This document shows positions 303 through 61,162 of a stretch of DNA of 64,000 nt, one piece after another; within the stretch, counting starts at the first letter, position 1, and each line of letters begins with the position of its first letter. A program made the translations under genes and the position numbers. Where the stretch lies: assembly GCF_000002075.1 (NCBI RefSeq), contig NW_004797336.1, positions 1,837,787 to 1,901,786 on the forward strand, in the 5' to 3' direction. The notes beneath the pieces were generated by a model. That model ran no database searches. It saw only the letters and a list, made by a program, of their open reading frames with translations, and was not told the DNA's origin. This stretch comes from Aplysia californica (Eukaryota).

Positions 303-990
303 AGCACCCCTGTACCTGAACCTGCACTCTCCCTGGCTGACCAAACCCTACCACCTGGATGCCCTGGACGAGTTCATACAGAAGATGGTAGAGATGGATG
401 ACGTTTTCCTGGTCACTGTAAACCAGGCCTTACAGTGGCAGATGGACCCCACCCCACTGGATCAAATCAACGAGTTTGCCCCGTGGCAGTGTCCAGGCTT
501 CGAACCCAACGCCGAAGACAGGAAAATCTGCTCTTTTGTGTTCAAACACAAAAGGAAAGGTCACATGACAGGCCATGGAGGCAGTCAGGACTCTAGTGGG
601 GGGCATGGGAAAAGTAGTGCAAGCCATGGTAGAAGTAACACCAAGCCCAAGGGTAATTACGTGGTTCAAAGAAAGTCAGATGACCACTCCTCCGACCACA
701 ACGTCCATCATGACAGGAAAGATGACCACAGGGACACCCACCACGCCGACTCTTCTAGCCACGAAGACGTACGATCTGACAAACACGACCTCCACAGAGA
801 TGACCATCACAACGATCACCACGACAACACGGACCACACAAGGTACACGTCTGGTAACTCCATCCACCATCATCACCACCGCACCCACAAACCTTGGTTT
901 CTCAAGAGTGGGGCTTCTAATTCTCTCGGGCCCTCCCTGCTGATCTTTTTTCTGAGTTGTCTATCAGTTGCAAGCTTTCTGTTCACCTGA
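303..990 (+). CDS. Terminal exon of a chitin deacetylase-like (CE4/polysaccharide deacetylase) protein with His/Asp-rich tail and putative GPI-anchor signal
   Basis: Acceptor ctgccctcag at 301-302. The frame reads (R)APLYLNLHSPWLTKPYHLDALDEFIQKMVEMDDVFLVTVNQALQWQMDPTPLDQINEFAPWQC, matching the C-terminal part of animal chitin deacetylases (NRAP.GL..H..W...DV.FVT..Q.I.W...P). Then a His/Asp-rich stretch and hydrophobic end SGASNSLGPSLLIFFLSCLSVASFLFT*. AATAAA at 1060-1065. Upstream exons lie outside the window. Confidence 0.85.
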
Positions 991-1299
991 ATCTCTCTAT
1001 CTGTTCCGTAGCATCCAATACATATTATATCATGTCATCATCTAAAACAAAAAAAAAACAATAAAGAAAAAGTTTCTTCCAACTACTTGTCTTATCCATT
1101 TGTGCCCTATTTTTCATATGTTCTTGTAAAGGAATACAATTCGATATGCTTGCAAATGCTGTAGGTCATCATCTACTCAATTTAGATCTTTAGTGGATAG
1201 GCCGCTTTGATTCAGAGCCAACCTAGGCAGAGTGGTACATGTACCAGAAAGTCAGTAAAAGAAAATGTTAAACAAAAATTCTTTGAAAAGGAATCAAAT

Positions 1300-11597: not shown

Positions 11598-12107
<510 letters not shown>

Positions 12108-13779
12108 TCATTGAGAAAATAGTAATTGTAACAATTGATGCAATAGGCAATATCCGTGTACCAAGATCAGAACTAATTTAACATGCAAAGCAGCAAAATG
12201 TTCGCGTTAAAACATTCTTACACCTACAGACAAAAATTTTTCTCAAAAGTAATCTCAGAATCAGAAGAAGGCAGGACTATAAAAGACAGGAGAAACTAAC
12301 CTCAAGGAGAGAAAGCGACCATTCTTATAGCTTAACTCACTTCACCCTGGCCAGTATGGGATCGCTGTGGTCACTCCACACTGGCAATTTTTCCCCTTTT
12401 CAAAACCTTTAAAAGAAAGTTAATTATAGTAAACTACTAGCTCAACCCCCAGTGACAACGTGCCAGGTCAGGATGAACAACATACTAGACTTCGGGAGCA
12501 GTTCATCTCAGTAAATGCATAATATTAACTCGGTTCTGGGCTATTTTAGAAAAGTCTGAGCTTTTTAGAGGCTTTCAAAATTTTACAAAAACTCCACCCT
12601 CTCACACTACACACCAAATTTACACCACAAAAACATCCAATACAGTACAATAACATGCAAAATAAAGGACAAAGAAATCTTTTGTGGCGTTTGTATTACA
12701 ATCTTTCAAAAATGGGCACAATTTTACCATGTGCAGAATTTTTCTTAAGAGGTACTTGTCCAAACTGAGGAGGAGTAAATTTACAGAAAAAGGCTTCACT
12801 TTGAGAGTAATTGAAAACAAAATCAAATAAGTACATCCTTCTTGTTTTCTACAGCAAAAAATGTTTTATTTCAGAGTGAAAACAAAAAAAATTGTCATTA
12901 TTATCGTAAAAAATCTCAAAACCAACAGATTTGTTTCGACATCATAATGAACGCCGACTCCATTACAGCAGTGAGAGAAGAAAAACACTGCGGATCGGTC
13001 GATCATCTGCTACACAAAAACTGCTACTCGGATAGAAGATCCGAAATGAAATTTTTATCAGAAGAGAGTAAATGATACCTGATGTGTGTTTCCCGCAACT
13101 TACACGATGAATTAGAAGAGCTGTCATGTTTAAAATACTGATGACGCAAGGGGTGCGGGAAAAGACTCAAGTGAGTCAATATGTGTCACCATGTGTTGGA
13201 ATCTGGCCCTCATCAATTTTGGGGCATGTGGAATTATTGGTATCAACTTAAAGCTTGTTCATTTGTCATGTTATCTGAGAAAAATCGACATTTTTCAGTG
13301 AAACCCATCCAGAATGAGAAATGTGTTCTTAATTGGACAAAGGTGGTGTTAAGCCCCCCCCCCCCCCCCCCCTAAAATTCCATAAAAATTGCCAAACTGG
13401 CAGAAAAATGACAATTTCTTCAATTTCATTATTTTGACCAGCGACTCACATGCAGTTTTTTATTTTCGTGTATTCATTTTTTAAATTACTGGGCTTTCAA
13501 GGAATTATGTCATTAAAACGTGTTGTCAAAGAGGTAACATCTGGCTCATATAATGGTACACCTTCCCTCTTGACAATACTTTTTTTCCTCTTCTTCTTTT
13601 TCTATGACATTCAAATGGTGAATCAGGTGAAGCCCAAATAGTGTTGTTCTGACAGAAAAAATTTTTCATGAGCGAATTAACGAGCCTGTGAGCCAGCAAT
13701 GCTAATCTTGGCTGGCTTGTTAATGACGCAACAATACATAACCTGTAAGCTCATTTCTTGATTTGGTAATTCAGTATGC

Positions 13780-14640
13780 CATATCTACGCCCATCGAGTG
13801 TTTACTCCAATACGACAATGCATCCAGCCCACTCCTTGTCTACGAATTGCAATCCCATGAGCTTCGGCCTGAAGTGGATGGAATCATTTAACCCACTGCT
13901 TGTAGAGCAGTCAGCTCATTTTTCGAGCACACCCTTTGCACTCCAGGATAATGAATCAGTCTCAAGTGCTCGCTACACCACTAATGTAAAGCGGGTTCTG
14001 TTTGTTGAAACTTGGCTGGGAGTAGTTCCATCTCCTTCTCATAGCAGACTTCGTGAGGGTTTTTGACTTGACAGGTTCATGCCATACACAATCCGAGTCA
14101 TTTTGGTTCCTACCTTCGCTAATACATCTTCAATGTCATTTCCTCACATAATATAACAGTGACCTGGTATCATGAGAACTGAGATCACAATCTCAGCTAT
14201 GTAGTTAAATCGTTGGGATCTTGTAGGTATGAAATGACTCTCTGATGATCCTTCTGACCATTCAATGTAGATTCCCCCCAAAGTCATCTTTGACAGCATC
14301 AGTTGCTGAGACACCTGTGTACACTCGGTCGCACTTGTGCCTGGGTAGTTTTTACCCTGGCGGTCAGGAGTAGTCATCTTCAAAGACTGTGGAGAGACTT
14401 TCTGCTTTCCATCAGAGTTCTTGTAGTTTCTTGGTCTGGAGAGGGTGAGCTTGGCACGTGTGTAATGGGACTGGGGATTCTTCCAATTTGATCTCCATTT
14501 CAGAGCTGGAGTGGAGACATTTGTGTAGGCTTGCTTGTCTTAATGGCTTGCTCAAGCTTTTTGAACCGCTTCATGGGATAGTCAGCATTCTTAAAATTTT
14601 TTCAAGCTGAATAATGGTCTTCAGGTCACACCCGAAGCTG
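13780..14640 (-). mobile_element. Possible decayed LINE ORF1 (SGNH-esterase-like) remnant in GOLPH3 intron 2
   Basis: More GC-rich than the flanks. Broken minus-strand motifs YPGTSA, KVGTK and DSIH loosely recall the esterase ORF1 of CR1/L2 elements. Weak. Confidence 0.25.
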
Positions 14641-58708: not shown

Positions 58709-59547
58709 CTGTTAAGAAGTAATTTAAAAAGATTCACTTTAAAATAGCTAAAAGCCGAAACAATGAAAGATGACCGCACTTTCTTAAGATCATTTACGAA
58801 CTATATTCAGATGCAAGTCTTATACTAAAAGTTAAAAATCGATATAAATTGCTATCCAGTTTCATTTTTAATACAAGTATGATTGAGTCTGAGTGTGTAT
58901 TTTATGGTTGGGATGGGTGAATACTATATATTTAAGTCAAGACAAGTGTACATGAAAAATAAAATTTACAACAACAAAATAAATTATGAGATCATCAAAA
59001 ACACCCTGAAAATTCGGAATAGAGTTTTTAAAAAACCCTTTACATTTCAACAGAACTGTCATTCAGATTAAATCACAATTGAAAGAATGACAGAAGGTGT
59101 GTCTGAGATCAGTCTACAAGAGATTGATCAAATAAACCTATAAAACAACTCAGCTGAATATGTGTTTCATTTAAAGGAAAAGAGATGTGGAAATGAAAAA
59201 TGAGAANNNNNNNNNNNNNNNNNNNNNNNNNNNNNNNNNNNNNNNNNNNNNNNNNNNNNNNNNNNNNNNNNNNNNNNNNNNNNNNNNNNNNNNNNNNNNN
59301 NNNNNNNNNNNNNNNNNNNNNNNNNNNNNNNNNNNNNNNNNNNNNNNNNNNNNNNNNNNNNNNNNNNNNNNNNNNNNNNNNNNNNNNNNNNNNNNNNNNN
59401 NNNNNNNNNNNNNNNNNNNNNNNNNNNNNGGGGGATAACACTGACACGTATAAATATACATCATTTCAATATGAATGTGATAGAATTCTGGTCAAGTCCA
59501 CTAACAAATAACCCAGACAAAAAGGAAAAATTCAAATCTGTTCTCAC

Positions 59548-60579
59548 CTGCACATCCTCTCCGTCCACAAACTGGGCAAATTTGTCCTTGTTGGTGGCAA
59601 TCACGTCCACAATTAAGCTGCGTATCGTTTTGTGAAAGCGCTCACTGCCATACAGTTGCTTGCTCAGAGCCCGGAAGAAGCAGTTCCCATCACCTCGAAT
59701 ATAGTCAATTTGACGATTTTCCTGTGCAAGTTTGTCTTTCAAAATATCATACACAGGATAACTGGGTGCTGGATTGACCTCTTTCTCATCATCTTCTGTG
59801 CTTGTTTTGCTGACTGATGGCGATGGATCACTACTTGAACTGAATGGTTGGGACAGCTCAGATGGTTTCTCTACAGCACTAGAGACGTCAACTTCAATGT
59901 CATCAACTGAGATAGCGTTACTTATGGAACAGGAACTTGTCTCTCGGCTTAACCTTTCACTGTCTTTGTCATTCCCTGAACTGTTGTTACTTATGTTCAT
60001 TTCATATGATTTATCTCTCAGAGTGTGTTTTGACCTTTCATCCCCCAACGTTTTGCTGTGTGTAAAGAGACTGCGCCGGGCACCTAGCGACTGAACGGAC
60101 GACTTGTTAATGATGACATCCTCTTCAATCTTGATTGGAGAAACTGACACAGTACTATCCGAATCACAAACATTTCTACTGAATCTTCGGTGGCTGGATA
60201 TACCAGGACAAGAGCGATCTGCTGAGGCAGATTTATAAATAATTGGCACCTCGACAGGTTCATCGTCTACGACAATAGGAGGTTCAGATTTTGACGAACT
60301 CGTTACCACTGATGGATTAATCCACTTTTTATTCGTATCTGGTGTTCTGCTCTCTGTTATGTGCTCAACCTTGATGGGGATGACCTTGCCGGGAGGACTT
60401 GGTGACCGAAGAGTTTCATACTTAGGGGAGGCCCATGATGGTCTGGACCAAGTAGGAGATGAAGGACTAGTCACTCGGTACCGTCGACGAGCTGGTCTTA
60501 TGTCATCCCACATAGAATGGAAGAAACTTGAGGAGGGAGATGGAAACATGGGGTTGAGGAGTGCAGGGCCCCCAGCCAT
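59548..60579 (-). CDS. OTU-domain deubiquitinase, first coding exon
   Basis: Acceptor ttctttcag|AT ATG (ATG at 60579). Ser/Pro-rich disordered N-terminus, then IRGDGNCFFRALSKQLYG (catalytic Cys). Donor CAG|gtgaga. With the last exon gives 450 aa. Confidence 0.92.
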
Positions 60580-61162
60580 ATCTGAAAGAATGGAGAAACA
60601 ATTCATAACAAATGTAATAATCTTGACAAATTTCTCCACAAAACCGGTCAAAAGCTATATTTTTAGCAAACCAATAATTTTTAGCAAACCATGATGAAAC
60701 AAGCAGTCTTGATGGGCTCATCACTGATCGAGTTAAGAAAAAAAGTGAAGAAACGGGGGCTACTGTATTCCATGAAGTTTCAAACAAAGATTCATTTTTT
60801 TAAAATATCTTTCACTGGTCTCGGCTATCACACACAGAACAAAAAGACAAGAATTTGCAAGCACCTTGTAAACCTAATGTTTACCTTACTCTTGGATTCG
60901 GCAAAACAAAATCTACGCTATACATACACACTGTTTTCATTTTTTCTCTCCTGTTTTTTTACTGAGCCATGCAGACAATCAGATACAACACTTTCACAGG
61001 TAAGAAAATTAATTATTAAAGAGGTCTTTTTTAAGCCTGTTCAACTATCTTCACGCTGCCATGACACATAAAAGTAAAAATAACATGGACACATTTCTTT
61101 ACATATTTTGCCTTTGCATAAATTTTTTCAACAAAAACACATAATATTAGACATAGGGAACT

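What the first reader, a model, noticed from the sequence alone, without database searches (positions are those of the whole stretch)
547..990. Chitin deacetylase-like enzyme with a 26-His/Asp-rich stalk and putative GPI anchor
Seen: after the deacetylase-like domain come a basic cluster (KHKRK), a Gly/Ser/His linker, repeated DDH/DHH/HHD motifs and an H5 run (26 His in ~115 aa), then a small-residue site (SGASNS) and a hydrophobic C-terminus. Known: the animal CDAs I recall are mostly secreted and end in a short Cys-rich ...YPW module; His-rich proteins bind Zn/Cu/Fe and harden chitinous jaws and beaks. Inference: a surface-tethered enzyme that couples chitosan formation to metal capture or sclerotisation/mineralisation (e.g. 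radula or shell matrix). The HKPW before the anchor may be a relic of the YPW motif.
Basis: partly seen in the sequence, partly recalled or inferred. Interest (0 to 1): 0.7.

Follow-up and report, generated by a model that had tools for sequence, protein, structure and literature searches.

The report
Membrane-anchored mollusc chitin deacetylase, His-rich linker
This is the last exon of a snail chitin deacetylase gene whose counterparts in chitons, cephalopods and other snails share a short conserved motif and a predicted GPI-anchor signal, so the enzyme likely works tethered to the cell surface, while the very histidine-rich linker seen here is an enlargement not matched in the relatives found and is probably not the conserved function.

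Summary
Observation confirmed: 26 His in 114 residues, H5, SGASNS and a hydrophobic end, all in one exon (303-990). One transcript-like contig joins it to upstream exons with CE4 motifs 1 and 2; motif 5 is in this exon; the unreadable middle has exactly the orthologue's length (136 codons). The gene belongs to one well-supported clade of chiton, cephalopod and gastropod deacetylases. Across that clade the conserved parts are the catalytic domain, a two-Cys module, a [KR]PWFL[KR] motif, a small-residue site and a hydrophobic tail. The linker is not conserved: 31-98 residues and 0-15% His in 28 others, against 114 and 23% here, and His-poor in limpet, chiton and cephalopods. Only a short HHHxH[RK]TH cluster is shared, among heterobranchs. 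Best reading: a likely GPI-anchored Zn deacetylase that trims newly secreted chitin at the cell surface, as fungal Cda2 does, on a disordered spacer. A conserved metal-capture or hardening role for the His tract is not supported. The shell-matrix deacetylase of Lottia is a paralogue. No named bivalve carries the motif, which hints at radula or jaw, but bivalve loss is unproven. GPI anchoring, metal binding and tissue are untested.

The parts
303..990 (+). Last coding exon of a CE4 chitin deacetylase gene (acceptor AG at 301-302, stop 988-990); upstream exons lie outside the window, about 3.2-5.8 kb before base 1
   Evidence: Contig of run X1 is spliced here and continuous to 1052; run X12 also leaves the genome sequence at this site; acceptor seen
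304..546 (+). C-terminal part of the CE4 barrel with motif 5 (LNLH, 316-327), PWQC and the second Cys of a two-Cys module
   Evidence: phmmer hit to BmCDA1 5zns, E 3e-6; 63-73% identity to heterobranch orthologues; His, Trp and both Cys invariant in 26 of 26 rows
547..888 (+). Low-complexity linker, 114 aa: 26 His, 18 Asp+Glu, 17 Lys+Arg, 10 Gly; likely disordered; longest and most His-rich of 29 clade members compared
   Evidence: the orthologue's linker has low pLDDT in two models
679..840 (+). Asp/His core built partly from degenerate short duplications of a DDH unit; not shared with orthologues
   Evidence: Repeat family D1, 3 copies of 26 nt, 69-73%; alignment
865..888 (+). HHHHHRTH cluster; the HHHxH[RK]TH pattern is shared by heterobranch orthologues (4-6 His in the 11 residues before the motif in 8 of 8), replaced by Lys/Arg-rich or no cluster elsewhere
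889..906 (+). Conserved [KR]PWFL[KR] motif directly before the predicted anchor site
   Evidence: Trp invariant in 26 of 26 rows; motif in 40 of 269 retrieved proteins; all that entered the tree fall in one clade
907..915 (+). Predicted GPI omega site (Ser-Gly-Ala), 26 residues from the end
   Evidence: Ser, Asn or Gly at this position in 28 of 29 clade members; rule-based, no predictor run
937..987 (+). Hydrophobic C-terminal signal without a cytoplasmic tail
   Evidence: Best 11-residue hydropathy 1.7 or more in 28 of 29
991..1065 (+). 3' untranslated part; AATAAA at 1060-1065, possible polyadenylation signal
   Evidence: X1 contig ends at 1052 beside an A-run; hexamer; true 3' end not shown

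Best explanation
This is a CE4 chitin deacetylase gene of a clade shared by chitons, cephalopods and gastropods; its product is predicted to be GPI-anchored and likely deacetylates freshly secreted chitin at the surface of chitin-making cells, held on a probably disordered linker whose His/Asp richness here is likely a lineage-specific expansion. Steps: (1) shown: one spliced transcript-like contig links signal-like segment, motifs 1, 2, 5, linker and tail; (2) from family knowledge: the Asp-His-His triad binds Zn and the motif-1 Asp and motif-5 His do the acid-base chemistry; (3) inferred: the tail is swapped for GPI at Ser after PWFLK; (4) inferred by analogy with Cryptococcus Cda2: membrane tethering lets it act on nascent chitin near chitin synthase; (5) inferred: the basic/His cluster plus PWFL is the selected part of the tail, most likely a membrane-facing or anchor-processing element; the Asp/His tract may well bind Zn or Cu in vitro, but that is at most a local add-on; (6) weakly inferred: the tissue is radula, jaw or other foregut cuticle rather than shell.
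For: Spliced contig joining three readable exons with 407 further letters, equal to the 136 codons of Lymnaea. Motifs in own genome: AFDD, HSVTH, LNLH. In 29 orthologue rows: motif 1 in 24 of 24 with residues there, motif 2 24 of 24, RSPFL 24 of 26, motif 5 29 of 29; motif-4 Asp at 90% or more in 88 rows. Lottia model matches BmCDA1, Z 44.0, rmsd 2.5, 331 aligned. Clade support 1.0 among 320 domains and SH-aLRT 99. GPI-type pattern in 28 of 29. Linker 31-98 aa, 0-15% His in 28 others. His+Lys+Arg of 4 or more in the 11 residues before the motif in 25 of 29. Cda2 needs its anchor to make chitosan (PMC3280450). Lottia orthologue 161263 in 0 of 12 shell-proteome files, paralogue 181237 in 12 of 12.
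Against: No GPI predictor or experiment; the tail could be a short transmembrane helix or be cleaved for release. Motifs 3 and 4 of this very gene could not be read. No activity is known for any member. The first in-frame Met lies about 100 residues before the hydrophobic signal (first Cys at 122 or 132 against 23-51 in 21 orthologues), so targeting may differ here. No close relative of this species was retrieved, so the His tract could be conserved and functional within its own family. All heterobranchs keep a His cluster, which argues for some selection on His. Bivalve loss is unproven (AU p 0.208), and a membrane-anchored protein could be missing from a shell proteome though made in mantle.
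Confidence: 0.62

Rival explanations
1. One reading: the His/Asp tract is a selected metal-collecting module that couples chitosan formation to hardening or mineralisation, at least in this lineage.
For: 23% His with 16% acidic residues; a His cluster is kept in 8 of 8 heterobranchs and 3-5 His in several caenogastropods; His-rich proteins bind Zn in Nereis jaws (PMC13120676); the motif occurs only in radula-bearing classes among named hits.
Against: Patella, chiton and cephalopod orthologues have 0-4% His, although limpets and chitons mineralise teeth (PMC9263180, PMC6351634 abstracts) and squid beaks are the His-rich example (recalled). Below the 8-in-20 criterion; Gly-poor compared with jaw protein Nai11527 (29% Gly); an enzyme on a membrane is unlikely to be abundant enough to be structural (inference); the tract looks like recent short duplications.
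Confidence: 0.15
2. The linker is a loop, not a stalk: PWFL is the remnant of the YPW element, packs back on the catalytic domain, and the enzyme sits directly on its anchor with the His/Asp loop projecting beside the substrate cleft.
For: PW aligned with YPW without guidance; best register score 9.6 against mean -10.7, sd 4.8; YPW-type ends (69) and hydrophobic ends (73) never co-occur among 269 proteins; a YPW-type protein (P0186) has a 45-residue insert at a similar place; the C-terminal loops shape one end of the BmCDA8 cleft; strong conservation of a motif after a freely varying linker.
Against: Two AlphaFold2 models of the Lottia orthologue leave the motif unconfident (block means 35-54 and 46-57), even with YPW rows aligned on it; the superposition on BmCDA1 stops at residue 504-505, before its YPW (527-529 by my numbering); the CxxCP that precedes YPW is absent; the sequence match rests on two residues.
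Confidence: 0.15
3. The tail is not a GPI signal in use: the protein is held by an uncleaved N-terminal or C-terminal hydrophobic segment, or is shed by cleavage at the basic cluster and works as a soluble matrix enzyme.
For: About 100 extra residues before the N-terminal hydrophobic segment; basic clusters at both ends of the linker; other lophotrochozoan CDAs end in TM-like segments with short polar tails (Owenia, scallops).
Against: L-x-A before Gln after the hydrophobic segment is shared with Lymnaea and Physella and looks cleavable; small residues at the site and 21-36 residues to the end in 28 of 29 fit GPI rules (rules recalled).
Confidence: 0.08

Closest known systems
Insect chitin deacetylases BmCDA1 and BmCDA8 (CE4; PDB 5ZNS, 5ZNT, 5Z34; PMC6463723)
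   Same: Same fold and loop insertion (orthologue model Z 43-44, 34-36% identity); same five-motif active site; no chitin-binding domain, as in insect group V (PMC7953033).
   Different: The second half of the C-terminal loops (CxxCP, YPW) is replaced by a linker, PWFL[KR] and a GPI-type signal; separate clade from arthropod CDAs.
Cryptococcus neoformans Cda2 (PMC3280450)
   Same: CE4 deacetylase with a GPI anchor; membrane location is needed for chitosan production. The working model for this gene.
   Different: Fungal subfamily, only distantly related (fungal CDAs Z about 15-16); anchoring is shown there and only predicted here.
Molluscan proteins auto-annotated 'chitin deacetylase 7-like' (Physella, Biomphalaria, Haliotis, Patella, Octopus, Liolophura)
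   Same: Orthologues: same architecture, motif and tail.
   Different: Shorter, His-poorer linkers and short N-termini; none found characterised in the papers searched.
Shell-matrix chitin deacetylases (Lottia Lotgi1|181237; Haliotis two-domain protein)
   Same: Molluscan CE4 enzymes acting on chitin matrices.
   Different: Paralogous type, described as secreted; the genome has such a two-domain paralogue on G000:C591.
His-rich jaw proteins Nvjp-1 and Nai11527 (PMC13120676)
   Same: High His fraction (16% there, 23% in this linker).
   Different: They are Gly-rich secreted structural proteins; this linker is Asp-rich, Gly-poor and fused to an enzyme; no sequence relationship was tested or seen.

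Membership tests
CE4 chitin deacetylase, animal type | Motif 1 (T/A)FDD with catalytic base and Zn ligand | tested here: met
   AFDD in own upstream exon, joined to this exon by contig X1
CE4 chitin deacetylase, animal type | Motif 2 HSxxH, two Zn ligands | tested here: met
   HSVTH in own second exon; Pfam PF01522 E 1.7e-4, 22.0 bits, just under the 23.1 cut-off for that 68-aa piece
CE4 chitin deacetylase, animal type | Motifs 3 (RxP[YF]L) and 4 (Asp) | tested here: inconclusive
   Not readable in G000; length of the hidden part equals the orthologue's; present in orthologues
CE4 chitin deacetylase, animal type | Motif 5 LxH, catalytic acid | tested here: met
   LNLH at 316-327
CE4 chitin deacetylase, animal type | (beta/alpha)7 NodB barrel with loop insertion | tested here: met
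   On the Lottia orthologue, not on this protein: Z 44.0, rmsd 2.5, 331 aligned to 5zns
CE4 chitin deacetylase, animal type | Deacetylase activity on chitin | not testable with these tools
   Needs an assay
Insect-type CDA with Cys-rich YPW end | CxxCP-xx-[YF]PW C-terminal module | tested here: not met
   CxxCP absent from this protein and from all motif-bearing proteins; only PW may correspond
GPI-anchored protein | N-terminal ER-targeting signal | tested here: inconclusive
   Hydrophobic segment with a cleavage-like site is present, but about 100 residues behind the first in-frame Met; no predictor available
GPI-anchored protein | Small residues at omega to omega+2, spacer, hydrophobic end without cytoplasmic tail | tested here: met
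   By recalled rules, here and in 28 of 29 clade members
GPI-anchored protein | Glypiation shown by PI-PLC release or mass spectrometry | not testable with these tools
   Needs an experiment
His-rich jaw/beak hardening proteins (Nvjp-1 type) | 8 or more His in 20 residues, or 10 His in a row, in a Gly-rich secreted structural protein | tested here: not met
   Maximum 7 in 20, run of 5, Gly 10 of 114
His-rich jaw/beak hardening proteins (Nvjp-1 type) | Zn or Cu binding, location in hard tissue | not testable with these tools
   No tissue label on any run; no binding data
Molluscan shell matrix protein | Detected in shell matrix proteomes | tested here: inconclusive
   Lottia orthologue in 0 of 12 files of one study, paralogue in 12 of 12; one species, and a membrane protein may escape

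The most novel reading that the evidence does not exclude
An undescribed GPI-anchored chitin deacetylase of radula-bearing molluscs, lost or remodelled in bivalves, that sets the acetylation of tooth and jaw chitin at the microvillar surface; its PWFL motif is the old YPW element docking back on the enzyme, and heterobranchs have turned the looped-out linker into a His/Asp metal or pH-sensing module, most extremely in this species.
Probability: 0.1. Interest if true: 0.7.

Novelty: new variant of a known kind. Interest (0 to 1): 0.38.

Why it matters
GPI-tethered chitosan synthesis is established in fungi; ten literature searches listed no paper on a GPI-anchored chitin deacetylase in molluscs, although the library lacks most subscription journals. 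A conserved, apparently single-copy membrane-anchored deacetylase of chitons, cephalopods and gastropods is a concrete candidate for how radula and jaw chitin is modified before hardening, testable by in situ hybridisation and knockdown in Lymnaea, Biomphalaria or Crepidula.

Tried and rejected
Pfam on the exon alone gave only chance hits. Run search: no RNA holder listed on record; three raw polyA runs of unknown tissue gave 0, 1 and 0 reads with no control stretch, so no test. Runs X2 and X5 proved to be unspliced, probably DNA. Complex prediction of the Lottia catalytic domain with a 32-residue motif peptide: no answer, score 0.00, alignments not used. First fold with 26 rows was too shallow (pLDDT 73). 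Atlas: no usable hit for the Physella tail. The idea that WFLKN equals the beta-10 strand (RYMKT) scored poorly (0.6 against 11.6) and was dropped. Claim of loss in bivalves: no named bivalve in the clade, but joining six hydrophobic-tailed, bivalve-type CDAs to it is not rejected (AU p 0.208, quick tree of 53 rows); the careful tree did not finish. Radula papers: no chitin deacetylase in the text or readable supplements of PMC5995198, PMC9263180 (one file unreadable, the table cut when stored) and the supplement of PMC6351634; these rest on name-based annotation and say nothing on expression. No copy of the unreadable exons elsewhere in G000. Microsatellite artefact and pseudogene rejected. 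Neighbouring genes are unrelated. Three look-ups of earlier findings were empty.

Full report
Observation. It is far beyond chance and is no microsatellite; three degenerate 26-nt copies suggest growth by short duplications. The frame is open from 271 and the exon starts at 303 behind an AG. Residues from 304 to 546 match the end of the Bombyx CDA1 catalytic domain (E 3e-6) and carry motif 5.

Gene. The window is G000:C66:1837787-1901786. Orthologue searches of the upstream DNA found two exons at 70-84% identity, with AFDD (motif 1) and HSVTH (motif 2). The part with motifs 3 and 4 is not readable in G000. One 2,246-base contig of run X1 (RNA by the tool's guess; it covers exons only) joins the first exon, the second exon, 407 further letters and this exon through to base 1052. 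Those letters plus the shared junction give 136 codons, the same as in Lymnaea. A contig of run X12, from another study, leaves the genome sequence at the same acceptor. The predicted protein has 602 or 612 residues, because the first in-frame Met lies about 100 residues before the hydrophobic signal; 21 orthologues have short N-termini. That oddity rests on one contig.

Relatives. The closest proteins come from heterobranch gastropods (Elysia, Lymnaea, Physella, Biomphalaria, Candidula). Wider searches (best 120 of 214 listed, best 120 of 233, best 150 of 2,956) and cluster look-ups added limpets, abalone, caenogastropods, Gigantopelta, octopods, Sepia and the chiton Liolophura. These form one clade: support 1.0 with 34 of 320 domains, SH-aLRT 99 in a 53-row subset. 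The window protein itself was not in the trees, as only part of its domain is readable; it is placed by identity and motif. Catalytic motifs are intact across the clade. An AlphaFold2 model of the Lottia member (pLDDT 89.5) superposes on BmCDA1 with Z 44.0 over 331 residues; BmCDA1 motif definitions are from PMC6463723 (passages; section 7).

What is and is not conserved in the tail. Among 29 clade members with a complete tail (three pairs are near duplicates; Elysia chlorotica and a Sepia fragment lack the tail and were left out), the order is constant: PWxC, a second Cys, a variable linker, [KR]PWFL[KR], a small residue, a hydrophobic end. The position after the motif is Ser, Asn or Gly in 28 of 29, and 21-36 residues follow in 28 of 29 (the Batillaria model looks truncated). 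This fits GPI rules as I recall them; no predictor was available. The linker is 31-98 residues with 0-15% His in the 28 others (medians 60 and 10%), against 114 and 23% here; Patella, chiton and cephalopods have 0-4%. Only the last cluster is shared: 4-6 His in the 11 residues before the motif in 8 of 8 heterobranchs, and 4 or more His, Lys or Arg in 25 of 29 overall. So charge next to PWFL is the conserved property, and the long Asp/His tract is particular to this lineage as far as the sampling goes; no close relative was retrieved.

Membrane tails are common in this family. Of 269 proteins held at that point (redundant), 73 had a hydrophobic C-terminus, 69 a Cys-rich YPW-type end (one of these a false match), none both, and 40 the PWFL motif. 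Hydrophobic ends also occur in mussel and scallop, limpet and Owenia paralogues.

YPW relic. Unguided alignment puts PW on PW, and that register scores best against 23 dereplicated YPW tails, but an unrelated PW scores nearly as well with the short block. If the motif packed on the enzyme as a YPW remnant, the linker would be a loop. Two models leave it unconfident, and the match to BmCDA1 ends at residue 504-505, before its YPW at 527-529 by my numbering. The idea stays open at low odds.

Tissue. No run carries a tissue label. The Lottia orthologue (161263) is in none of 12 supplementary files of a shell proteome in which paralogue 181237 is in all 12 (PMC3374290; passage; supplements); the paralogue's peptide type marks the two-domain group, and the Haliotis shell CDA is two-domain (PMC6003135, passage). 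A mussel nacre transcriptome lists two CDAs (PMC3544910, passage). No named bivalve falls in the clade though many bivalve paralogues were retrieved, which would fit a radula or jaw role, but the data do not reject a bivalve group as its orthologue.

Mechanism. Most likely the enzyme is glypiated at the Ser after PWFLK, sits on the apical membrane of chitin-secreting cells and removes acetyl groups from nascent chitin with a Zn triad. The precedent is Cryptococcus Cda2, which is GPI-anchored and makes no chitosan without its anchor (PMC3280450; abstract; section 11). Insect groups are summarised in PMC7953033 (passages), which has no occurrence of 'transmembrane'. The His/Asp tract would probably bind Zn or Cu in a tube, but it misses the 8-in-20 His criterion and the Gly richness of Nereis jaw proteins (PMC13120676, passages) and is absent where teeth are most mineralised. 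Shown: gene structure, motifs 1, 2, 5, clade, tail pattern. Inferred: anchor, activity, tissue, role of the motif.

Novelty. Ten searches (listings only, except for the papers named) showed GPI-anchored CDAs in fungi and none in molluscs; subscription journals are mostly missing and some supplements were unreadable or cut. Radula papers checked without a hit: PMC5995198 (passages and one supplement), PMC9263180 (passages and supplements), PMC6351634 (listing and one supplement). Verdict: a real, intact gene; a new variant of a known enzyme kind, whose interest lies in the conserved anchored clade and its motif more than in the His tract. Interest 0.38.

Noticed in passing
L016:3137-3500 (G000:C66, first readable coding exon, upstream of the window): About 100 in-frame residues precede the hydrophobic signal segment, with no Met close to it; orthologues have short N-termini. 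Four short upstream ORFs lie before the first in-frame ATG, and the exon begins behind an acceptor-like AG. Long signal peptide, signal anchor or an unseen alternative 5' exon.
   Followed up: partly
G000:C591, about 258,300-268,400 (L002, L010, L012): Two-domain CDA paralogue; the second domain lies wholly in the last exon and lacks the DD and HxxxH ligands, so it is likely inactive. Same type as molluscan shell-matrix CDAs.
   Followed up: partly
G000:C388, C422, C250, C897, C86, C694, C22: Further CDA-like exons; the genome holds several paralogues.
   Followed up: no
P0050, P0052, P0059, P0060, P0063, P0066, P0051, P0047 and about 25 unnamed proteins: Other animal-type CDAs with hydrophobic C-termini but no PWFL motif; membrane tethering recurs across the family and excludes the YPW-type end.
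   Followed up: partly
P0122 (Gigantopelta): Record with two tandem copies of this gene type fused in one model, probably a local duplication merged by annotation.
   Followed up: no
window 11598-20869, - strand: Exons of a GOLPH3/GPP34 gene, convergent with the deacetylase (Pfam E 3e-20 for 11598-12104).
   Followed up: no
window 39386-42210, - strand: C2H2 zinc-finger gene exons, named from the translation only.
   Followed up: no
window 59461-60654, - strand: OTU-domain protease exon (Pfam PF02338, E 5.8e-5).
   Followed up: no
window 22432-23807 (-) and 46994-48011 (+): Broken reverse-transcriptase-like frames, probably LINE remnants; named from recalled motifs in the translations.
   Followed up: no
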